From NCBI GenBank assembly GCA_035546775.1, contig DASZWD010000017.1:30564-94563 (forward strand): a DNA stretch of 64,000 nucleotides, in the 5' to 3' direction. The translations under genes and the position numbers were made by a program. This stretch comes from Acidimicrobiales bacterium. GTDB lineage: Bacteria; Actinomycetota; Acidimicrobiia; Acidimicrobiales; JACCXE01. The notes beneath the pieces were generated by a model. That model saw only the letters and a program-made list of their open reading frames with translations, searched no databases and was not told the origin of the DNA. This document shows, piece by piece, positions 12,107 to 20,777 of the stretch (position 1 is its first letter; each line of letters begins with the position of its first letter).

Positions 12107-13267
12107 TTATCGCCGGAGTTCGTACAGCTGGACGGGATCGCTCACGCCGCGGAGGGCGGCCTGTCCCAATGGTACGAAGGTGAACGCGTCGGCGCTGGCG
12201 TGCGCCACGACCGAATCTGTCGCGACAACCGAACCGGGCGCCGCGGCCTTGCCGGCGCGGGCAGCAACGATCACGGTCGGACCGAAGTAGTCACCATCGC
12301 GCGGGAACACCGTCCCGAAAGCAACGCCGCCGCGAGCCTGCGGCAGTCGGGATTCCGCGGCGACGGCCTCACAGAGTTCGACGGCGACCGTCGCCACGGC
12401 GGTCGGTTCGAACCCGACGAACATCGCGTCGTCACCGTTGGTCTTCACCAACCGACAGCCGTGTTCGGTGGCAAGCGTGTTGGCCAACCGCTCGAACTCG
12501 TTCAGCGCGCCGCGCAGTTCGCCACGCGTTGCCTGCTCCGTCCACGCCGTCGAGGCGACGAGGTCGACGAACGCGACGGCGACGTCGAGGCTCGCAATGT
12601 CAAGGCGCTGCGGATCGGTCGGCACCATGACGTCGGCAAGGCGGTTCACGTGCTCGAAAAACGCGCGCGTGAACGCGGCCGGAATCAGCGGCAGGGCGCC
12701 GGTGGCCTGTTGGTTCGTGCGCAACATCGCCAACTCGCCGCCCGGCGTGTCCATGAGGCTCGCCGCCAAATCCGTGAACACGACCGCCCGGGATGCTTCG
12801 GCGAGGCGAATGGCGGTTGATCCGACAACCCGCACCAGACCCAGGATCGCTTCCTCGCCGAAGAGCGCGGCGCCGAACGCAACCCCGACCATGTCGTCGA
12901 CGAACGGGCCGGGAATCACGCGGGCATCGGGATCGTCGTCGCGGAAACCGAGTTCGGCGCGCACCCGCATGACCAGGTCGACGGGTACGCCGGCGCGCGC
13001 CGCGATCTCGGTGGCCGACAGACGGTCCCGCGAGATGAGGACGTCGACGATGGAACCGCGCGGAGATCCTTCGGGCGCCGCCTGCAGTTGCTCGATAAGC
13101 CCGTTGAGTCCTTGGGCGGCGAACGTCGCTTCGATCTGGGCCTGCGACGAGCCATGTTCGAAGAGATACGTGACCAACTCGAGGCGGTCGGCGGCGCGCG
13201 GTGATGCGGGGTCGTAAACGCCGGAGGCGATCAACCGGTCGACGTCGAGCGACGGTTCGCCGGCCAT
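12107..13267 (-). CDS. Class III adenylate/guanylate cyclase domain protein with an N-terminal regulatory region
   Basis: AFVDLVAST, LVKTNGDDAMF, RGGVAFG...GDYFGPTVIVAAR. Confidence 0.85.
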   Translation of the reverse strand: MAGEPSLDVDRLIASGVYDPASPRAADRLELVTYLFEHGSSQAQIEATFAAQGLNGLIEQLQAAPEGSPRGSIVDVLISRDRLSATEIAARAGVPVDLVMRVRAELGFRDDDPDARVIPGPFVDDMVGVAFGAALFGEEAILGLVRVVGSTAIRLAEASRAVVFTDLAASLMDTPGGELAMLRTNQQATGALPLIPAAFTRAFFEHVNRLADVMVPTDPQRLDIASLDVAVAFVDLVASTAWTEQATRGELRGALNEFERLANTLATEHGCRLVKTNGDDAMFVGFEPTAVATVAVELCEAVAAESRLPQARGGVAFGTVFPRDGDYFGPTVIVAARAGKAAAPGSVVATDSVVAHASADAFTFVPLGQAALRGVSDPVQLYELRR

Positions 13268-13290: not shown

Positions 13291-14085
13291 GTGTTCGGGC
13301 TGCCAGAGCTGATCAAGTGCCTCGAGACCGGTGACAACCTCGACATCGGTTATCACCGCGTGTTCGGCGGCCAGATCCTCGCCCAGATGATCACCGCGGC
13401 GGCGAAGGCGTCACCCGACAAAGTGGTGAAGTCGATTCACGTGCTGTTCCCTCGCGAGGGCGATACGTCCAAGCGCATGGAATACGCCGTGGACAAGGTG
13501 CAGGACGGTCGCACGTTCGGCACGACGTCGATCACCGCCACGCAGGACGGCAAGGTCATCAGCGTGGCGACGGTCTCGCTGCACGCCGTCGAGGAGTCGC
13601 CGTTGCACCGCAGCGACTCGCCGCCGGCGGGTGTCGGCACTCCCACGCAGGCGATCGAGATCGAGAACAACATGATCCCGTGGGAGTTGCGCGTCGTGGG
13701 CGGCGTCGACCTCGCCGCCAAGGAGAAGGGGCCCGCCGAGTACCAGATGTGGATGCGGGCGACGGGCGCCGCTGGCCAGCCCCTCGCCGTGCAGCAGGCG
13801 CTGCTGGCTCACGCCACGGATCTCACCATCATCGGCACCGCGCTGCGTCCCTTCGAGGGCGTGTCGCAGGCCGACTCCACGGTGACGCTGCACACGGCCG
13901 TGACCTCCCACAGTGTGTGGTTCCACCAGTCGTTCTCGCTCGAAGACTGGGTGCTGCTGGCGCAGACGTCGCCGGTGGTCGCCGGCGGGCGCGCCTTCGG
14001 CCGCGGCGACGTGTTCAGCGCAAAGGGAGAGGTGGTTGCGTCGTTTGCGCAGGAGTCGATGGTCCGCCCGATTCCGGCGAGCTGA
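13291..14085 (+). CDS. tesB: Acyl-CoA thioesterase II family
   Basis: VFGGQILAQ, KSIHVLF, QDGRTF, TSHSVWFH, VASFAQE. GTG 13291 lies 7 nt after a TAGATT -10-like box. Confidence 0.85.
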   Translation: MFGLPELIKCLETGDNLDIGYHRVFGGQILAQMITAAAKASPDKVVKSIHVLFPREGDTSKRMEYAVDKVQDGRTFGTTSITATQDGKVISVATVSLHAVEESPLHRSDSPPAGVGTPTQAIEIENNMIPWELRVVGGVDLAAKEKGPAEYQMWMRATGAAGQPLAVQQALLAHATDLTIIGTALRPFEGVSQADSTVTLHTAVTSHSVWFHQSFSLEDWVLLAQTSPVVAGGRAFGRGDVFSAKGEVVASFAQESMVRPIPAS

Positions 14086-15298
14086 CGCGCCGTCGCAGCA
14101 GTAGCCAACTCCCGACGAACAACGCCGCGCACCAGGCGGCCAACGGCAGCGACCGAGGACCGCGCAGCCCGACGGTTGCTCCCCCGGCCACCGCCAGCGC
14201 GACGCCGAGCGCAACCTGAAGCTGCGGCGGCGCCGTGTCCGCATGCGACCGGCGCCGCAGCTGCGCCCGCACACCCGACGTCGCCAGCACGAACAGCGTC
14301 GCCAGACCCAACACGGCCGCGTACCACAGCGGCCGCGTCAGCCACCACAGCGCCGTCAGGCGTGTCGGCGCCGGGAAGCCGGCCGCCAACACGGCGCCAC
14401 ACAGCGAAAGCGCTGTGAGGTGCCAGGCGTAGATGCCGAGCGACAACTCGCCGGCGCGGTCCCACACCCGCCGCCAGCGCGCGCCGATACCGTCGAGCCA
14501 CGTTCCGAGCGCCATCAGCGCCCCGACCTGTCCGATAGCGGCGACGCACGTGTACAGACCCGGCGGCGTCGTGTTCGAACGCGCACGCGGGACCGCGTCG
14601 ATCAGCGCGGGGGCGTACCCGAACCCAAGCACGAGCACGGTCCCGACAACCACGGCGCCGGCCATGAGCGCCAAGCCCACGCGGCGTTCGTCGAACCCAC
14701 CCGCTTCGTGGCGCGCCCGCCACCACCCGCCGAGCAGCCACGGTGTACCCCACACCAGGTAAAAGCCGATCCAGCCGATCCACTCGGGCGCACCGAGAGT
14801 GATCCGCGCCACGTCGAGCGCCGCGAGCGTGGCGAGGGCGATCGTCACCGCCGCGAGGGCGTGGTCGCGGCCGAGACGGCCCAGCCGGGCGCCGAGCGGC
14901 ACGAGCGGCGCGTAGCCGGCGACGAACCACAGCGGCTGGGTGGCGATGCGGGCACCGTCACCGAACACTCCGGCGTGCCCATTGAGGCCGACGGCGATCC
15001 CGACGCCCACCGACCACGTCGCCACCACGACCGCGCCGAGACCGAGCAGCGCCGAGAGCCGCGCCGACGCTGTCTCGAGCGACGACGTCACGTGCGCCCA
15101 CCCCGCGGCGGCGAAGAACACCGGCATCGGCGCCAGCGCGGCGACGAACGCCCAAGCGGGGTGCAGCGCCAGGAGGTTGGCGCCGCGGATGTGACCGTGC
15201 GGGCGGTCGATCACCGCGAGCGTCAGATGGCCGAGCACGACGATGATCAGCGCACTGACGCGCGCCACGTCGATTGCGTTGCGCCTCACCGCCTCCAT
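14015..15298 (-). CDS. Acyltransferase family 3 membrane protein
   Basis: RRNAIDVARVSALIIVVLGH, MPVFFAAAG, LWFVAGY; about ten hydrophobic segments. Confidence 0.82.
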   Translation of the reverse strand: MEAVRRNAIDVARVSALIIVVLGHLTLAVIDRPHGHIRGANLLALHPAWAFVAALAPMPVFFAAAGWAHVTSSLETASARLSALLGLGAVVVATWSVGVGIAVGLNGHAGVFGDGARIATQPLWFVAGYAPLVPLGARLGRLGRDHALAAVTIALATLAALDVARITLGAPEWIGWIGFYLVWGTPWLLGGWWRARHEAGGFDERRVGLALMAGAVVVGTVLVLGFGYAPALIDAVPRARSNTTPPGLYTCVAAIGQVGALMALGTWLDGIGARWRRVWDRAGELSLGIYAWHLTALSLCGAVLAAGFPAPTRLTALWWLTRPLWYAAVLGLATLFVLATSGVRAQLRRRSHADTAPPQLQVALGVALAVAGGATVGLRGPRSLPLAAWCAALFVGSWLLLRRRVSSPESGGPSTPAQTTQPPLPLR

Positions 15299-15328
15299 TT
15301 GTAACGAAGTCGGAGCGTCCCGGGACGG
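15298..15328 (+). promoter_or_regulatory. Putative ECF sigma promoter (autoregulatory, leaderless)
   Basis: TTTGTAACG-N16-GGACGG-N6-GTG; identical architecture at 16207-16237. Confidence 0.75.
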
Positions 15329-15334
15329 AATCGC

Positions 15335-15937
15335 GTGGTTGTTCTAGCGTTCGCGTTGGTGGATGCGGACGCCACTCTCGTGGAGAAGATGCGGGCGGGC
15401 GACGAGGCCGCGTTCCGTGAGATCGTCGCGCGCTATCAGGACCGGTTGCTGCGCCTGGCCCAAGCGACCGTCGGCAGCCGCGCCGTAGCCCAGGAGGTCA
15501 CGCAGGACACGTGGCTGGCCGTGCTGCGCGGTGTCGACCGCTTCGAGGGCCGCAGCACGTTCAAGACGTGGCTGTTCAACATCTTGATGAACCGGGCGCG
15601 CACCGCGGCGCACAAGGAAACCCGCGCGGGCCGTCCGGACGAGACCGTCGGCGACGAACGGTTCGACCAGAACGGCGCATGGGTCAACCCGCCCGAACCG
15701 TGGTCCGATCGCGTCGACGACCGCCTGGTGGCCAACGACCTCGCCCATCGGTTGCGCGACTTGCTGCCGCAACTGCCCGACCAGCAACGCGCCGTCATCA
15801 TCATGCGCGATGTGGAGGGCCTGTCCGCCGTCGCCGTGACCGAAATGCTCGGTGTGACCGAAGGCAACCAGCGCGTGCTCCTGCACCGGGGACGCGCGAA
15901 ACTGCGCGCCCTGCTCAACGAGGAGTTCGCGTCGTGA
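15335..15937 (+). CDS. ECF RNA polymerase sigma factor
   Basis: GDEAAFREIV, AQEVTQDTWL, FEGRSTFKTWLFNILMNRAR, LPDQQRAVIIMRDVEGLS...VTEGNQRVLLHRGR. Confidence 0.95.
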   Translation: MVVLAFALVDADATLVEKMRAGDEAAFREIVARYQDRLLRLAQATVGSRAVAQEVTQDTWLAVLRGVDRFEGRSTFKTWLFNILMNRARTAAHKETRAGRPDETVGDERFDQNGAWVNPPEPWSDRVDDRLVANDLAHRLRDLLPQLPDQQRAVIIMRDVEGLSAVAVTEMLGVTEGNQRVLLHRGRAKLRALLNEEFAS

Positions 15938-16200
15938 CGTCGCTCTTCCGCCGCCGCCGCCGTGATCTCGTCTGCCGCGAGGCCGTGGCGCTCATGACCG
16001 ACTACCTCGATGGGCAGCTGTCGCCCGTCGACGCCGCCCGCCTCGAAGGGCATCTCGCCGCCTGCCCGCACTGCTCGGAGTACCTGGCGCAGATTCGGGT
16101 CACCGTCGACGCCCTCGGCTACGTGACGCCCGACGACTTGAGTGACGACGCGGTAAATGATCTCGTTGGCCTCTATCGCCGCTGGCAGTCCGAGGAGTAA
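15934..16200 (+). CDS. Soluble zf-HC2 (ZAS) anti-sigma factor
   Basis: GTGA overlap with the sigma stop. LVCREAVALMTDYLDG...HLAACPHC (HxxxCxxC); no TM segment. Confidence 0.9.
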   Translation: MTSLFRRRRRDLVCREAVALMTDYLDGQLSPVDAARLEGHLAACPHCSEYLAQIRVTVDALGYVTPDDLSDDAVNDLVGLYRRWQSEE

Positions 16201-16206
16201 ACCGGC

Positions 16207-16237
16207 TTTGTAACGCGCGCTCGTCGGTCAAGGACGG
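16207..16237 (+). promoter_or_regulatory. Putative ECF sigma promoter (leaderless) for the flavodoxin-like gene
   Basis: TTTGTAACG-N16-GGACGG-N6-ATG(16244). Confidence 0.75.
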
Positions 16238-16243
16238 TGCGAC

Positions 16244-16990
16244 ATGGCGCTTAACGCAAAGCAAGAAGAGTTGTGCTCACAGAGTCAGTGGGACTTCTCC
16301 GGCCTGTCCGCCCTCTTCATCAACTGCACACTCAAGAAGTCGCCCGAGGTCTCCAATACGCAGGGACTCATCGACATCGCCGGCGAGATCATGACGCGCC
16401 AGGGCGTCTCGGTCGAAGAAATCCGCGCGGTCGACCACGACATCGCGACCGGTGTCTGGCCCGACATGACCGAGCACGGTTGGGCCAAGGACGACTGGCC
16501 GATGATCCATGAACGCGTGATGGCCACCGACATCCTCGTGGTGTGCACGCCGATCTGGCTCGGTGAGAAGTCGTCGGTGTGCAACCGCGTCATCGAGCGC
16601 CTGTACGGCAACTCGTCGCTGCTGAACGAGAACGGTCAGTACGCGTACTACGGCCGCGTCGGCGGCTGCCTCATCACCGGCAACGAGGACGGCGTGAAGC
16701 ACTGCGCCATGAACATCCTGTATTCGCTTCAGCACCTCGGCTACGTGATCCCGCCCCAGGCCGACGCCGGGTGGATCGGCGAGGCGGGCCCCGGCCCGTC
16801 GTATCTCGACCCGGGCAGCGGCGGGCCCGAGAACGACTTCACCAATCGCAACACCACGTTCATGGCCTGGAACCTGATGCACGTAGCCCGCATCCTCAAA
16901 GACGCCGGCGGCATTCCCGCCCACGGCAACCAGCGCGCCGCGTGGGACGCCGGGTGCCGCTTCGACTTCCCCAATCCCGAGTACCGCTAG
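16244..16990 (+). CDS. Flavodoxin-family / NAD(P)H-dependent FMN reductase-like protein
   Basis: FINCTLKKSPEVSNT (phosphate loop), TPIWLGEKSS, ITGNEDG. Confidence 0.88.
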   Translation: MALNAKQEELCSQSQWDFSGLSALFINCTLKKSPEVSNTQGLIDIAGEIMTRQGVSVEEIRAVDHDIATGVWPDMTEHGWAKDDWPMIHERVMATDILVVCTPIWLGEKSSVCNRVIERLYGNSSLLNENGQYAYYGRVGGCLITGNEDGVKHCAMNILYSLQHLGYVIPPQADAGWIGEAGPGPSYLDPGSGGPENDFTNRNTTFMAWNLMHVARILKDAGGIPAHGNQRAAWDAGCRFDFPNPEYR

Positions 16991-17006
16991 CCAAGGAGGA
17001 CCCCGC

Positions 17007-17600
17007 ATGTTCGTGCAAGTCATCACCGGAGAGACCACGGATCCCGCCGCGGTGCGGGCGCTGGGCGAGAAGTGGCAGCGAGAACTGCGTCCCGGCGCGG
17101 TCGGTTACCTCGGCAGCACCATCGGTACCGCGGCCGACGGCACGTTCGTGGCCGCCATCCAGTTCACCGACGACGTCGCCGCCAAGGAGAACTCGGAGCG
17201 CCCCGAGCAGGACGCCTTCTTCAAGGAGATGTCGCAACTCTTCGACGGCCAGCCGACGTTCCGCGAGTCGAACGACACATCGCTGCTCTTCGACGGTCCG
17301 AGCGCCAAGGCTGGCTTCGTGCAGGTGATGCAGAGCACGTGCACCGACCGCGCCAAGGCCGAAGCCATGGAGTCGAACGAGTTACTCGACGCCCTGCGCG
17401 CCGCCCGCCCCGACCTGCTCGGCGGCCTGCGGTTGTGGGACGGGAACCAGTCGATCGAGATCGCGTACTTCACCAGCGAAGCCGACGCTCGCGCCGCCGA
17501 GAAGTCCGAGGCGTTCGACGCGCCGCAACAGGACTTCTCGTCGCTGTACGAGAACACGACCTACATCGACCTGCCCAACCCGCAGATCCACCTGGCCTAG
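17007..17600 (+). CDS. Hypothetical protein with two ABM-like repeats
   Basis: SD AAGGAGG; MFVQVITGETTD... repeated as GFVQVMQSTCTD... Confidence 0.78.
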   Translation: MFVQVITGETTDPAAVRALGEKWQRELRPGAVGYLGSTIGTAADGTFVAAIQFTDDVAAKENSERPEQDAFFKEMSQLFDGQPTFRESNDTSLLFDGPSAKAGFVQVMQSTCTDRAKAEAMESNELLDALRAARPDLLGGLRLWDGNQSIEIAYFTSEADARAAEKSEAFDAPQQDFSSLYENTTYIDLPNPQIHLA

Positions 17601-17651
17601 CGACCGTCGCGTTCGGAGCCGTGACGGCTGAATAAGCCGTACGCTGCGGGC

Positions 17652-20600
17652 GTGACGGGGGGCCGGACTCTCACGGTGCTGGTGGCCGACATCGTCGAGT
17701 CCACCCGTCTCGCCACGAGTCTCGGTCCCGAGCGCGCCGACGACCTGCGCCGGTCGGTGTTCAGCCGCTTCGAGTTGGCGGCCGAGCAACACGACGGCAC
17801 CCTCGTCAAGACGCTGGGCGACGGTTGTCTCGTCACCTACACGAGCGCGTCGAACGGCATCACGGCCGGCGTCGAGCTGGTGCAGTCGATCGATCGCTTG
17901 GCGCGCCAAGTCCCCGGCCTTCAGCTTCGCGTCGGAATCGCCGTGGGTGACCTCACCGAGGAAGACGGCGACGTGTTCGGCGAGGCCGTCGTGCTCGCCC
18001 GCCGCGTGTGCGACGCCGCCTCCCCCGGCCAGGTGCTCGTCACCGACGTCGCCCGCACGCTCGCCGGCGCACGCGGCGCGATCACGTGGCAGCGCGTCGG
18101 CGACATCTTCCTGAAGGGCCTCGACGAACCGGTTCCGTGCAGCTCAGCGCGGCCGTCGACCGATCTCGGGGCCGCCGCCACGCTGCCGCGCGCGCTGCGG
18201 CGTCGGCACGGCGAGTTCTTCGTGGGACGAGCGGCGGTGCTCGAGTCGTTGGTGCGCACGTGGAAGGAAGCCGAAGGGGGCGACGGCCGGTTCGTGGTGG
18301 TTTCGGGCGAACCCGGCGTCGGCAAGACGCGGCTGGTGGCGGCGGCGGCGCGGCGCGCCGACGACGACGGAGCGCGCGTGCTGTTCGGCCGCTGCGAAGA
18401 AGACCTGGCGCTGCCCTACCAACCGTTCGTCGACGCCCTCCGGCCGGCGATCGAGGCTGCGCCCCGCGACGTCGTTGCCGCCCATATGGAAGCCCACGGC
18501 GGCGAGATCCGCCGCCTGTTTCCGAAGCTGCCCGGCCCGGCACCCGTGGACGCCGCCCTCGAACTCGAAGAGGCACGCGTCAACGCCGCGCTCGCGGACC
18601 TCGCGGCCCGCCTGGCGCGCGAGCAGCCGATCGTGCTCGTGATCGACGACGTCCACTGGGCCGCACCCGCGACGGTGCACGCGCTGCGCCATCTGCTCGC
18701 CGCCGACGATCCGGCGCCGCTTCTCGTGCTCGCCACCTACCGCGACACCGAAGTCGTCGCCAGCGACGCCACCGCCGCGCTGCTCGCCGACATCCCGCGG
18801 TTCGACCACGCCCACCGGATCGCCCTGTCCGGCCTCACGCAGGACGAGGTCGAGGAACTCATCGAAGAGCTCTCCGCCGAACCGCTGAGCAGCGCCAGCA
18901 CCCGTCTGGCGGCGGCCGTGTTCGCCCACACCGCCGGCAATGCGTTGTTCGTGAACCAGGTGTTGCGTCACCTCGCGGAGACCGGTTCGGTGGAGATGCG
19001 CGACGGGCGATGGGAACTCGCCGCCGAACTCACCGACATGCCGACGGCGGTCACCGACGTGGTCAACCGCCGCCTCGCCCTCCTCGCGCCGACCACCAAC
19101 CAAGTCCTCGCCATCGCCGCCGTGGCCGGAGAGCGCTTCACGCACGCGCTCATCAGCCGCGTCGCCGCCGGCGTCGACATCGACGCCGCGCTCGCCGAAG
19201 CACTCCGGGCGCGGCTGCTCATCGACGACGGGCGCGGCGGCTACCGCTTCTTCCACGCCATCGTCCGCGACGCCCTGCTGGCGTCGCAGAGTGCGGCCAC
19301 GCGCGCCGCCCATCACCGCGACATCGCCGCCGTCATGCGGACGATCTACGGCGACGGGCCGACCGCGCCGCTGCACGACCTCGCCTATCACGCCTGCGGC
19401 GCCGCCGGTCTCGGCACGACGGCCGACGCCGCCCGCTTCTCGCTGGCCGCCGCCGAAGCGTCGGTGCACCGCGCCGACGTCCGCGCCGCCATCGCCGTGC
19501 TCAACCGCTGCTGGCGCACCCTCGACGCCATCGATCCGGTCGACCACGTCGCCCGCTTCGACGTGTGCAACCGGCTTGCGGAACTGCACTACGCCATGCT
19601 CGACGGCGAGTACGACGCGCTCGAAGCCGCCGTCGAGTCGGCGCGGTTGCTTGGCTCGCCGGAGCGCCTCATCCGCGCATCGCTCTCGGCGTACCGCTGG
19701 GACCTCGGCACAGACGACGCCTTCGCCACCAAGCTGATCGAGGAGGGACTCGCCACGCTGCCCCCGGGGCCGTCGGCTCTGCGTGCCCTCGGCTTGGCCA
19801 GCGGCGCCAACTTCCTGAACGTACAGGCGACGGGTGATCCGCGCGCCTGGACGCGCCAGGCCTTCGAAATGATCGACGAACTCGGCGGCCCGACGACACT
19901 CGATCTGCGCCTCGCCTTCGAGTGCGCGGTTGCGGCGACGGCGGGGCATCCCGGCGTGCGAGCCGTCGTCGAGCGAATCGAAGCCAACGACGGGTCGCCG
20001 CTGTCGCCTCGCGGCGGATCGCTCCTCGCCGCGTACATGGGCACCAAAGCCGAGTCGTACCTCCGCGCCGGCAACCGCGATGCGAGCCTCGCCGTCATCC
20101 GCACGATGGAGGCGATCGCCAGCACCAGCGGCGACCCGAACGTCATGGGTTGGGCGCTGACGACCCAGGTCATCTGGGCCCTCGCCGAGGCGCGCTACGA
20201 CGACGCCGCCGCATTCGCACAGCGCGCCGTGAGCCGGATCGGCGTGCACGTGCCCAATATCGCGGCGGTCGTGGCCGTCGGCACGATGTGGCGCGCCTAC
20301 GAGGAGGGCAACTCCGCGATGGTCGTCGACGTCATCCGCATGATGGTGACTGCGACGCCTGAGTTCCACGGAATGCGCGCCGCCCTCGCCGTCCATCTGT
20401 GCGAACTCGGCGAGTTCGACGAGGCGCGCCAGCACGTGCAGTACATCGTCGACCTCCTTCCTACCCTGCCTCGCAACGTCGCCTTCGGGTGCGCGATCGG
20501 CCTCACCGCCGAGGCGGCGGCGCAGGCAGGTTGCGCCGAGTACGCACCCGCGCTCATCGCGGAACTCGAACCGTTCCGCGACGAGATCATCTCGTTGCCG

Positions 20601-20777
20601 GCCAACGTGATGCTCGGTGCGGCCACCCGCTACATCGGCGCCCTGCGCTCCCTGCTGGGCGAGCGCGACGCGGCCATCGCGGACCTCGAGGCTGCGATTG
20701 CGTTGGAAGCAGCGCTGGGCGCCGAAGCGTGGCTGGCTCGCAGCCGCCGCTGGCTCGAGCGCGTCAGTTCGAGCTGA
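17652..20777 (+). CDS. Class III cyclase domain + AAA/STAND ATPase + helical-repeat protein
   Basis: ADIVESTRL, VKTLGDG, GDVFGEAVVLARR (cyclase); GEPGVGKT (Walker A); VIDDVHWA (Walker B); GNALFV. Confidence 0.9.
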   Translation: MTGGRTLTVLVADIVESTRLATSLGPERADDLRRSVFSRFELAAEQHDGTLVKTLGDGCLVTYTSASNGITAGVELVQSIDRLARQVPGLQLRVGIAVGDLTEEDGDVFGEAVVLARRVCDAASPGQVLVTDVARTLAGARGAITWQRVGDIFLKGLDEPVPCSSARPSTDLGAAATLPRALRRRHGEFFVGRAAVLESLVRTWKEAEGGDGRFVVVSGEPGVGKTRLVAAAARRADDDGARVLFGRCEEDLALPYQPFVDALRPAIEAAPRDVVAAHMEAHGGEIRRLFPKLPGPAPVDAALELEEARVNAALADLAARLAREQPIVLVIDDVHWAAPATVHALRHLLAADDPAPLLVLATYRDTEVVASDATAALLADIPRFDHAHRIALSGLTQDEVEELIEELSAEPLSSASTRLAAAVFAHTAGNALFVNQVLRHLAETGSVEMRDGRWELAAELTDMPTAVTDVVNRRLALLAPTTNQVLAIAAVAGERFTHALISRVAAGVDIDAALAEALRARLLIDDGRGGYRFFHAIVRDALLASQSAATRAAHHRDIAAVMRTIYGDGPTAPLHDLAYHACGAAGLGTTADAARFSLAAAEASVHRADVRAAIAVLNRCWRTLDAIDPVDHVARFDVCNRLAELHYAMLDGEYDALEAAVESARLLGSPERLIRASLSAYRWDLGTDDAFATKLIEEGLATLPPGPSALRALGLASGANFLNVQATGDPRAWTRQAFEMIDELGGPTTLDLRLAFECAVAATAGHPGVRAVVERIEANDGSPLSPRGGSLLAAYMGTKAESYLRAGNRDASLAVIRTMEAIASTSGDPNVMGWALTTQVIWALAEARYDDAAAFAQRAVSRIGVHVPNIAAVVAVGTMWRAYEEGNSAMVVDVIRMMVTATPEFHGMRAALAVHLCELGEFDEARQHVQYIVDLLPTLPRNVAFGCAIGLTAEAAAQAGCAEYAPALIAELEPFRDEIISLPANVMLGAATRYIGALRSLLGERDAAIADLEAAIALEAALGAEAWLARSRRWLERVSSS

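What the first reader, a model, noticed from the sequence alone, without database searches (positions are those of the whole stretch)
15298..16246. Exactly repeated ECF promoter: TTTGTAACG-N16-GGACGG-N6-start codon
Seen: two sites share 15 identical bases with identical spacing and an identical 6-nt distance to the start codon (GTG 15335 of the sigma, ATG 16244 of the flavodoxin-like gene). Taking the start codon as +1 puts TGTAAC at -35..-30 and GGACGG at -12..-7. Established: ECFs autoregulate, and their -10 is usually CGTC/CGTT-like, so GGACGG is unusual. Inference: this is the cognate promoter, giving leaderless mRNAs.
Basis: partly seen in the sequence, partly recalled or inferred. Interest (0 to 1): 0.75.

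Follow-up and report, generated by a model that had tools for sequence, protein, structure and literature searches.

The report
Autoregulated ECF promoter driving leaderless genes
The repeated motif is very probably the promoter read by the neighbouring stress sigma factor of an uncultured soil actinobacterium; it sits so close to the start codons of its target genes (its own gene, an FMN reductase, methionine sulfoxide reductases) that the mRNAs should have no leader. This is a well-supported but fairly ordinary new example of a known kind of regulatory circuit.

Summary

Only GTAACG-N16-RGAC is conserved; the TTT and the final GG are not.

The box lies before the sigma gene in 11 of 12 orthologous Acidimicrobiales loci, always with the 16-nt spacer. 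It also precedes the FMN-reductase gene, msrA and msrB.

In this genome 5 of 13 boxes have ATG/GTG exactly 6 nt downstream (P about 1.5e-5). A start-codon peak appears only with spacer 16.

All six genus genomes with the sigma ortholog have the box before msrA. Three without it carry a SigR/H-like GGAAAT-N18-GTT instead.

Leaderless architecture is general here (TANNNT 6-10 nt before about 800 starts).

New: a second, housekeeping-type -10 (TAGCGT 15345-15350) lies 8 nt before the conserved GTG 15359. The sigma gene therefore probably has two nested leaderless promoters and two isoforms.

No transcription-start data exist.

Verdict: interpretation supported computationally; a new member of a known kind, of moderate interest.

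The parts
15298..15306 (+). P1 -35 element (TTT)GTAACG of the sigma gene
   Evidence: GTAACG is conserved at this relative position in 11 of 12 orthologous loci.
15323..15328 (+). P1 -10 element GGACGG (consensus RGACNR)
   Evidence: A and C at hexamer positions 3-4 are invariant in the 32 compiled sites, and the spacer to GTAACG is always 16 nt.
15335..15337 (+). GTG, predicted 5' end of the P1 transcript and start of the longer sigma isoform
   Evidence: It lies 6 nt after the hexamer. An in-frame RTG at N6-N7 is found in 8 lineages, with extensions of varying length. This is an inference, not mapped.
15345..15350 (+). P2 housekeeping-type -10 box TAGCGT (TANNNT)
   Evidence: It is conserved 7-8 nt before the conserved start in all 14 distinct sigma loci examined (the 12 orthologues, G004, and the 52%-identity homologue of G020). 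In most loci the TA falls in an NTA codon, and NTA codons make up 2% of L/V/I codons. Genome-wide, TANNNT-N6..10-RTG is enriched about 4-11-fold.
15359..15937 (+). ECF sigma factor ORF from the conserved GTG (192 aa; 200 aa from 15335)
   Evidence: Pfam Sigma70_r2, Sigma70_r4_2 and Sigma70_ECF. No NCBIfam equivalog reaches its cut-off.
15934..16200 (+). Soluble zinc-binding (ZAS) anti-sigma factor, 88 aa; its start overlaps the sigma stop (GTGA)
   Evidence: zf-HC2, E = 1e-13. C14, H40, C44 and C47 are invariant in 7 homologues. The RsrA model scores 33.4 bits against a 62.5 cut-off.
16207..16215 (+). P3 -35 element (TTT)GTAACG of the FMN-reductase operon
   Evidence: It is conserved before the orthologous gene in L004, L006, L008, L009 and L015.
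16232..16237 (+). P3 -10 element GGACGG
16244..16990 (+). NADPH-dependent FMN reductase-like gene; ATG 16244 is the predicted transcript 5' end
   Evidence: Pfam FMN_red. ATG 16244 is the first possible start of the ORF. The N-terminus M[AT]LN.KQE is conserved. The protein is 83-97% identical across loci.
17007..17600 (+). 197-aa protein of unknown family, probably co-transcribed with the FMN reductase gene
   Evidence: The gap is 16 nt. It is conserved downstream in L004. It has no Pfam or NCBIfam hit.

Best explanation
GTAACG-N16-RGACNR is the promoter recognised by the ECF sigma factor encoded at 15335/15359-15937.

- Holding and release (inferred): the sigma is held by the co-translated soluble zinc anti-sigma (15934-16200). 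It is released by a signal that is probably oxidative.
- Targets: once free, it transcribes its own operon from P1, the adjacent FMN-reductase operon from P3, and a small dispersed regulon. The regulon comprises msrA, msrB, two small unknown proteins, an OsmC-like peroxiredoxin and an EgtB-like enzyme.
- Leaderless mRNAs (inferred from spacing, not mapped): in this genus the -10 hexamer ends 6-7 nt before the start codon. Transcription should therefore begin at or next to the A/G of the ATG/GTG, giving leaderless mRNAs, which are the common mRNA type in this organism.
- Two sigma promoters: the sigma gene also has an internal housekeeping-type -10 (TAGCGT) 8 nt before the conserved GTG 15359. 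Basal expression then gives the 192-aa sigma, and induced expression from P1 gives an N-terminally extended 200-aa isoform.
For: - The motif is exact and non-random.
- It lies before the sigma gene in 11 of 12 orthologous loci with an invariant 16-nt spacer.
- It lies before the orthologous FMN_red gene in 6 loci, before msrA in 6 genomes and before msrB in 3 genomes.
- Genome-wide, GTAAC-N17-RGAC gives 18 hits against 5-10 at other spacings.
- A peak of start codons at +6/+7 (5 and 5) appears only with spacer 16.
- Five of 13 GTAACG-N16-RGAC sites have RTG exactly at N6, binomial P = 1.5e-5.
- In the sample of 41 genomes, box plus N6 plus RTG gives 17 hits in the 6 genomes that carry the sigma ortholog. 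It gives 0 hits in 4 same-genus genomes without it and 3 hits in the other 31; the reversed-pattern control gives 2.
- msrA of three sigma-less same-genus genomes has GGAAAT-N18-GTT instead.
- The targets are oxidative-stress genes: PMSR, SelR, OsmC, FMN_red, and FGE-sulfatase with DinB_2.
- In L009 and L015 the same box is followed by a 30-31 nt leader with its own SD. The box is therefore a promoter and not a ribosome site.
- Leaderless architecture is general in this genome. TANNNT at 6-10 nt before RTG gives 278, 262, 180, 129 and 91 cases against about 25 background.
- P2 is conserved in all 14 sigma loci despite rare NTA codons.
- The anti-sigma has invariant C-x25-H-x3-C-x2-C.
Against: - There are no transcription-start or expression data. 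The only RNA run holds a few short contigs.
- The site collection is partly ascertained with patterns that required GTAAC, RGAC or RTG, so the consensus is somewhat circular.
- The six sigma-bearing genomes are one clade, so the co-occurrence may be partly phylogenetic. The four 'sigma-less' genomes are 61-86% complete.
- Many -10 hexamers (AAGGAC, GAGGAC, GGGAGAC) also look like Shine-Dalgarno sequences at a suitable distance.
- In L010 and L011-L014 the in-frame ATG lies 10 and 15 nt after the hexamer, and in L015 the N6 ATG is out of frame. The 'isoform' reading is therefore not universal.
- The anti-sigma lacks most RsrA redox-determinant residues (HLAACPHCSE against HFEECSPCLE; PMC3177212), so the inducing signal is uncertain.
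Confidence: 0.75

Rival explanations
1. The GGAC block is a Shine-Dalgarno sequence, and GTAACG is the site of some other DNA- or RNA-binding regulator. The genes would be translated conventionally from longer transcripts that start further upstream.
For: Many hexamers with their 5' neighbours read AAGGAC, GAGGAC or GGGAGAC, and they lie 8-10 nt before the start codon. The FMN_red gene follows the anti-sigma stop by only 43 nt with no terminator, so read-through transcripts could use AAGGA as an SD.
Against: The invariant bases are A and C, which are not part of an SD. The msrA hexamers ATACTG, ACACTG and ATACTA are not SD-like. The distance to GTAACG is exactly 16 nt in all 32 sites, which has no meaning for a ribosome site. 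In L009 and L015 the box is 30-31 nt upstream and a separate GAGGAG or AAAGGG SD follows. The two blocks have no dyad or direct symmetry.
Confidence: 0.08
2. The box is a real ECF-type promoter but is read by a different sigma factor of the genome, for example a SigD-like one, and not by the adjacent gene product.
For: The genome has many ECF paralogues; 24 candidates were seen in the first look. GTAAC(G) -35 boxes are used by unrelated ECF groups: ECF16 (PMC3420878, PMC3511200) and SigD (PMC6338062).
Against: The box sits directly before this sigma gene in 11 of 12 orthologous loci across several genera. Box plus N6 start hits and the msrA box occur only in genomes that have this ortholog. 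Autoregulation is the rule for ECF sigma factors with a co-transcribed anti-sigma; this last point rests on established knowledge.
Confidence: 0.07
3. P1 is the cognate promoter, but the sigma mRNA it produces is not translated from GTG 15335. It would carry a 24-nt untranslated leader with translation starting only at the conserved GTG 15359, so the sigma gene itself is not leaderless from P1 and there is only one isoform.
For: Only residues from GTG 15359 onward are conserved in sequence. In L015 the N6 ATG is out of frame, and in L010 and L011 the in-frame ATG is 10-15 nt from the hexamer.
Against: An in-frame RTG lies 6-7 nt after the hexamer, with an open frame through extensions of 8-18 codons, in 8 lineages: the window and L004, L005, L006, L008, L009, L013 and L044. 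There is no SD before GTG 15359. From established knowledge, a 5'-terminal GTG/ATG is sufficient for leaderless initiation in actinobacteria.
Confidence: 0.3
4. The two copies are a chance or recently duplicated repeat with no function.
For: None beyond the fact that TTT and the final GG are shared only by these two copies.
Against: 0.05 matches are expected by chance. The spacers between the two blocks are unrelated in sequence. The core is conserved at orthologous positions in genomes whose sigma is only 62-70% identical.
Confidence: 0.01

Closest known systems
SigR-RsrA of Streptomyces coelicolor / SigH-RshA of mycobacteria (ECF12)
   Same: Both pair an ECF sigma with a small soluble zinc anti-sigma carrying the C...HxxxCxxC ligands. 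Both are autoregulated from an upstream sigma-dependent promoter with a separate downstream promoter, giving two isoforms: sigRp2 gives sigmaR' and sigRp1 gives sigmaR (PMC4921905). Both regulons are oxidative-stress genes.
   Different: The promoter is GTAACG-N16-RGAC, not GGAAT-N18-GTT. The anti-sigma scores 33.4 bits against a 62.5 cut-off on the RsrA model and lacks the E39/E40/L45 determinants (PMC3177212). The genome has a separate bona fide RsrA-family gene. The extension is 8-18 aa, not 55.
Mycobacterium tuberculosis sigE promoters
   Same: The downstream promoter gives a leaderless mRNA, and an upstream promoter is recognised by SigE/SigH (PMC4921905, section 9). The anti-sigma RseA is a soluble ZAS; this last point is from my own knowledge.
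   Different: The SigE NCBIfam model scores only 64.7 bits against a 265 cut-off. The promoter motif and the gene neighbourhood are different.
SigD promoters of Corynebacterium glutamicum and mycobacteria (ECF40)
   Same: The -35 is GTAAC(A/G) and the -10 is GAT, with GTAAC-15 nt-CTCGAT, i.e. 18 nt between GTAAC and GAT (PMC6338062). Here the arrangement is GTAAC-18 nt-GAC, so the promoter differs essentially by one base of the -10 core.
   Different: The sigma is not a close SigD relative; the PDB SigD sigma4 fragment matches only at E = 8.8e-6, no better than SigW. The anti-sigma is a soluble ZAS, whereas RsdA is a membrane protein (own knowledge). The regulon is oxidative stress, not cell envelope.
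ECF16 (Caulobacter sigmaF, Bradyrhizobium EcfF-OsrA)
   Same: The -35 is tGTAACc with a 16-nt spacer, tGTAACc-N16-CGAA (PMC3420878, PMC3511200). EcfF is ROS-inducible and autoregulated.
   Different: The -10 is CGAA or CG(t/a). The anti-sigmas (OsrA, NrsF) are membrane proteins of another family, and the hosts are proteobacteria.
Predicted leaderless ECF promoters (Todor et al. 2020, bioRxiv 10.1101/2020.06.23.168245)
   Same: A large-scale prediction already found a class of ECF promoters with extremely short 5' UTRs, corresponding to leaderless mRNAs, with abundance varying by phylum.
   Different: This particular sigma group, its motif and its almost entirely leaderless regulon in Acidimicrobiales were not found in the texts I could search.

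Membership tests
ECF (group 4) sigma factors | Only sigma2 and sigma4 domains, about 200 aa | tested here: met
   Pfam Sigma70_r2 (residues 31-97), Sigma70_r4_2 (139-190) and Sigma70_ECF. TIGR02937 scores 91.6 bits against a 42.9 cut-off.
ECF (group 4) sigma factors | Co-transcribed cognate anti-sigma factor | tested here: met
   A zf-HC2 gene overlaps the sigma stop (GTGA). It is conserved downstream in all orthologous loci.
ECF (group 4) sigma factors | Autoregulation from a cognate two-block promoter (-35 xxAAC, 16-17 nt spacer, short -10) | tested here: met
   GTAACG-N16-RGAC lies before the sigma gene in 11 of 12 orthologous loci. The test is by sequence only; transcription was not tested.
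ZAS (zinc-binding anti-sigma) factors | HxxxCxxC motif plus an upstream C/H ligand about 25 residues before it | tested here: met
   C14, H40, C44 and C47 are invariant in 7 homologues. zf-HC2 E = 1e-13.
ZAS, redox-sensitive RsrA subfamily | Match to the RsrA equivalog model, and flanking determinants E39, E40, L45, E46 | tested here: not met
   TIGR03988 scores 33.4 bits against a 62.5 cut-off. The sequence is HLAACPHCSE, so only the last E is present (one search compared with PMC3177212). A true RsrA-family gene lies elsewhere in the genome.
ECF12 SigR/SigH | Promoter GGAAT-N18-GTT | tested here: not met
   The promoter here is GTAACG-N16-RGAC. A GGAAAT-N18-GTT box is seen before msrA only in genomes lacking this sigma.
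ECF40 SigD | Promoter GTAAC(A/G) ... GAT | tested here: inconclusive
   The -35 and the spacing are the same, and the -10 is GAC rather than GAT (one search compared with PMC6338062). Protein similarity to the SigD sigma4 fragment is weak. No SigD equivalog appears among the top NCBIfam hits.
ECF16 sigmaF/EcfF | Membrane anti-sigma of the NrsF/OsrA type next to the sigma gene; promoter tGTAACc-N16-CGAA | tested here: not met
   The neighbouring anti-sigma is an 88-aa zf-HC2 protein in which I see no hydrophobic (membrane-spanning) segment by inspection. The -10 is RGAC.
ECF group assignment (ECF Hub classification 2.0) | Score against the group HMMs | not testable with these tools
   The ECF Hub models are not available, and the supplement of PMC7826278 is not held. 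No NCBIfam equivalog reaches its cut-off; the best is PRK11922 at 118.5 bits against 204.
Leaderless mRNA | Transcript 5' end at (or within a few nt of) the start codon; no Shine-Dalgarno leader | not testable with these tools
   Only spacing evidence exists: the hexamer lies 6-7 nt before the start in 26 of 32 sites, and the same geometry holds for TANNNT genome-wide. No usable RNA reads were found.

The most novel reading that the evidence does not exclude
An uncharacterised Acidimicrobiales ECF sigma/ZAS module forms a second oxidative-stress circuit beside SigR-RsrA. Its regulon is almost wholly leaderless. Its own gene carries two nested leaderless promoters: an ECF-type P1 at GTG 15335 and a housekeeping-type P2 embedded in the coding sequence of the longer form at GTG 15359. 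Induction would therefore switch the cell from a 192-aa to an N-terminally extended sigma isoform with different properties. In this genus the module has taken msrA over from SigR/H-type control.
Probability: 0.4. Interest if true: 0.5.

Novelty: new member of a known kind. Interest (0 to 1): 0.4.

Why it matters
It gives a testable promoter consensus (GTAACG-N16-RGACNR) and a regulon for an uncharacterised ECF sigma/anti-sigma pair. The regulon comprises msrA, msrB, an FMN reductase, OsmC-like and EgtB-like genes and two unknown small proteins. The host lineage, soil Acidimicrobiales, is uncultured and has almost no regulatory knowledge.

It indicates that about a fifth or more of this organism's genes are leaderless, and that an alternative sigma factor uses the same geometry as the housekeeping one. 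It also offers a natural case of regulon rewiring: msrA sits under this sigma or under a SigR/H-like box depending on whether the sigma is present. Finally, it is a compact example of two promoters nested around two start codons.

None of this changes current concepts. ECF autoregulation, ZAS anti-sigmas, leaderless actinobacterial mRNAs and sigma isoforms are all established.

Tried and rejected
- RNA evidence. Two run searches found only soil and rhizosphere DNA metagenomes and one wastewater RNA run kept as contigs. Laying that run gave five short fragments and no 5'-end information.
- ECF group assignment. The supplement of the ECF classification paper is not held and its main text has no GTAAC or flavodoxin group. 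NCBIfam gave no equivalog above cut-off, and PDB sequence matches are generic: SigW, AlgU, RpoE.
- The sigma-70 and terminator consensus scan found no TTGACA/TATAAT-type promoter and no plus-strand terminator in 15150-17750. This is uninformative for TANNNT-only actinobacterial promoters.
- A 'BRAMP' literature search, intended to name the FMN_red relative 5mji, returned only unrelated papers.
- The plain box without the start-codon condition is too short to be specific across genomes; counts were about equal to the reversed control outside the genus, so it was not used as evidence.
- The GNAT hit (G000 C62:3927) was rejected as a regulon member. The box lies inside the coding sequence: the Pfam match starts at profile position 40, and the same sequence is conserved as coding in G003 and G005.
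- More distant homologues (42-50% identity) in 34 of 301 Actinomycetota genomes show the ZAS partner and the TANNNT leaderless start. No GTAAC box was seen by eye in the 140 nt upstream of the 11 fetched loci, so the motif could not be extended to the wider family.
Full report
**1. Observation**

- The sequence is exactly as described.
  - TTTGTAACG 15298-15306, 16 nt, GGACGG 15323-15328, 6 nt, GTG 15335.
  - TTTGTAACG 16207-16215, 16 nt, GGACGG 16232-16237, 6 nt, ATG 16244.
- These are the only matches in the window at up to two mismatches. Shuffles give 0.05 expected, and none of 100 gave two matches.
- They are also the only exact copies in the 3.75-Mb, 75-contig genome.
- The two 16-nt spacers are unrelated in sequence, so this is a shared two-block motif and not a duplicated segment.

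**2. Genes around it**

| Coordinates | Product | Evidence |
|---|---|---|
| 15335-15937 | ECF sigma (Sigma70_r2, r4_2) | |
| 15934-16200 | 88-aa zf-HC2 anti-sigma; GTG overlaps the sigma stop | |
| 16244-16990 | FMN_red protein | |
| 17007-17600 | 197-aa protein without family | |

- The anti-sigma has invariant C14, H40, C44 and C47.
- It is not an RsrA equivalog: 33.4 bits against a 62.5 cut-off.
- A true RsrA-family gene lies elsewhere in the genome, at C31:20825-21037 with 70.4 bits.
- No NCBIfam sigma equivalog reaches its cut-off.
- The organism is an uncultured soil member of the Acidimicrobiales (record titles; runs).

**3. Conservation in orthologous loci**

- Twelve loci with 64-84% identical sigma proteins were fetched.
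- GTAAC[GA]-N16-[AG]GAC (GCAACG in L009) precedes the sigma gene in 11 of them.
- The box also precedes the orthologous FMN_red gene.
  - In L004, L006 and L008 the start codon lies 6 nt after the hexamer.
  - In L009 and L015 there is instead a 30-31 nt leader carrying its own GAGGAG or AAAGGG.
- That last point separates the box from the ribosome-binding function and marks it as a promoter.

**4. Genome-wide scan and regulon**

- GTAAC-N17-RGAC occurs 18 times, against 5-10 at neighbouring spacings.
- With GTAAC[GA]-Nx-NNAC, a peak of ATG/GTG opening ORFs of at least 60 aa appears only for x = 16, at +6 and +7. The counts are 5 and 5, against 0-2 at those offsets (+6, +7) with the other spacers.
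- Five of the 13 GTAACG-N16-RGAC sites have RTG exactly at N6, binomial P = 1.5e-5.

Genes behind these sites:

| Gene | Pfam | Distance from hexamer to start |
|---|---|---|
| sigma | Sigma70_r2, r4_2 | N6 |
| FMN reductase-like | FMN_red | N6 |
| MsrA | PMSR | N6 |
| MsrB | SelR | N7 |
| 92-aa protein | none | N6 |
| 193-aa protein | none | N6 |
| OsmC-like | OsmC | 25-nt leader with GGGAGG |
| EgtB-like | FGE-sulfatase + DinB_2 | 51 nt |
| APH-family kinase (less certain) | APH | 18 nt |

A hit in a GNAT gene is inside coding sequence and was rejected.

**5. Co-variation with the sigma**

- Among 41 related genomes, orthologs with at least 62% identity are found in six of the ten genomes of the genus.
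- The pattern box + N6 + RTG gives 17 hits in those six genomes. It gives none in the other four genus genomes and 3 hits in the remaining 31 genomes, two of which open ORFs of 7 and 12 codons. The reversed-pattern control gives 2.
- msrA is the clearest case.
  - All six sigma-bearing genomes have GTAACG-N16-A[G/T/C]ACT[G/A]-N6-ATG.
  - The three sigma-less genus genomes that have msrA carry GGAAAT-N18-GTT instead, which is SigR/H-like, and their start codon is shifted by two codons.
- The orthologous msrB in G001 and G006 also has the box at N6, with GAAACG in G006.
- Across the 32 compiled sites:
  - the spacer is always 16 nt;
  - the -35 is G-T-A-A-C-G, with 30-32 of 32 sites agreeing at each position;
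  - the hexamer is R-G-A-C-N-R, with A and C invariant;
  - the distance to the start is 6 nt in 23 sites and 7 nt in 3.
- This compilation is partly ascertained by the patterns used.

**6. Leaderless context**

- In this genome TANNNT lies 6, 7, 8, 9 or 10 nt before an RTG of an ORF of at least 100 aa in 278, 262, 180, 129 and 91 cases. The background is about 25 per offset, and the control TNNNAT shows no such peak.
- Several hundred genes therefore have the leaderless architecture known from mycobacteria and streptomycetes.
- The ECF hexamer occupies the same place relative to the start codon as the housekeeping -10.

**7. A second promoter in the sigma gene**

- In all 14 distinct sigma loci, a TANNNT hexamer lies 7-8 nt before the conserved start. 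These include G004 and a 52%-identity homologue in G020.
- Examples are TAGCGT, TAGCCT, TAGTGT, TAACCT, TAGCTT, TAACGT, TAGCAT, TACGTT and TACGCT.
- In the window the hexamer is TAGCGT 15345-15350, followed by 8 nt and GTG 15359.
- In the frame of the long ORF the TA falls in a CTA, GTA or ATA codon. NTA codons are only 2% of Leu/Val/Ile codons here. The conservation is therefore at the DNA level.
- Upstream, the RTG 6-7 nt after the P1 hexamer is in frame and open in 8 lineages: the window and L004, L005, L006, L008, L009, L013 and L044. The extensions are 8-18 codons long and of unconserved sequence.
- In L010 and L011-L014 an in-frame ATG follows at 10 or 15 nt. In L015 the N6 ATG opens a 20-codon out-of-frame uORF.
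- I infer two nested leaderless promoters and two sigma isoforms. This parallels sigRp1/sigRp2 with sigmaR/sigmaR' in S. coelicolor, and the leaderless sigEp1 with its upstream sigma-dependent promoter in M. tuberculosis (PMC4921905).

**8. How unusual is the -10?**

- The conserved core is GAC, preceded by a purine.
- C. glutamicum SigD promoters are GTAAC(A/G) with GAT. One is written GTAAC-15 nt-CTCGAT, i.e. 18 nt from GTAAC to GAT (PMC6338062). Here the arrangement is GTAAC-18 nt-GAC.
- ECF16 uses tGTAACc-N16-CGAA (PMC3420878, PMC3511200).
- The promoter is thus a one-base variant of a known type, although the protein is not a close SigD or ECF16 relative.
- Leaderless ECF promoters have been predicted at large scale before (bioRxiv 10.1101/2020.06.23.168245).

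**9. Wider family**

- Homologues at 42-50% identity, mostly with a homologous small ZAS partner, occur in 34 of 301 sampled Actinomycetota genomes.
- Several of them have a TANNNT-N6-8-GTG start.
- I saw no GTAAC box upstream of them.

**10. What is missing**

- No transcription-start data exist. The available runs are DNA metagenomes and one RNA run kept as contigs, which gave only fragments.
- The inducing signal is inferred from the regulon only.
- The anti-sigma lacks most RsrA redox determinants (one search compared with PMC3177212).
- The formal ECF group could not be assigned.

**11. Verdict**

- It is refined in three ways: the -10 core, the second promoter with two starts, and lineage-specific leaderlessness.
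- This is a new member of a known kind and of moderate interest.

Noticed in passing
L050, L052, L053 (msrA loci of G009, G002, G008), about 40 nt before msrA: Same-genus genomes that lack the sigma ortholog have GGAAAT-N18-GTT (SigR/H-like) before msrA instead of the GTAACG box, and the msrA start is shifted by two codons. This is an apparent swap of the controlling sigma.
   Followed up: partly
G000 C31:20825-21037 (outside the window): A bona fide RsrA-family anti-sigma (TIGR03988, 70.4 bits against a 62.5 cut-off) is present, so the module in the window is a second ZAS/ECF circuit beside SigR-RsrA.
   Followed up: partly
window 16244-16990: The FMN_red protein is 83-97% identical across loci in which the sigma is only 62-84% identical. 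Its best solved relative is 5mji, 'BRAMP domain protein' (E = 4.6e-43). The conservation is unusually strong for a regulon member.
   Followed up: partly
whole genome G000: TANNNT sits 6-10 nt before ATG/GTG of long ORFs about 940 times, against about 125 expected from the background. Leaderless genes are therefore a major class in this Acidimicrobiales genome.
   Followed up: yes
window 14015-15298 (minus strand): The start codon of the Acyl_transf_3 gene (complement of 15296-15298) abuts the -35 box, leaving a 36-nt divergent intergenic region. No TANNNT for it is visible. The gene is absent from L004, where a thioesterase gene ends right at the box.
   Followed up: no
L015:2882-2980: In this relative the ATG 6 nt after the P1 hexamer is out of frame with the sigma and opens a 20-codon ORF ending in TGA. 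It may be a leaderless uORF.
   Followed up: no
G000 C47:34640 (outside the window): A perfect 26-bp palindrome, GTAACACTCTATTAATAGAGTGTTAC, lies just before a 214-aa gene. It looks like a repressor operator and matched the relaxed box by chance.
   Followed up: no
window 12107-13267 (minus strand) and 17652-20777 (plus strand): An adenylate cyclase with an Ad_Cy_reg domain lies upstream. Downstream is a 1041-aa protein whose N-terminus looks cyclase-like. Both flank the ECF module and were not examined further.
   Followed up: no
L056 (G034 C325:11734-11759): A GTAACG-N16-GGAC box lies about 86 nt before msrA in a genome of another family, in which no sigma ortholog was found at E <= 1e-30. 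This may be chance or a more distant cognate sigma.
   Followed up: no
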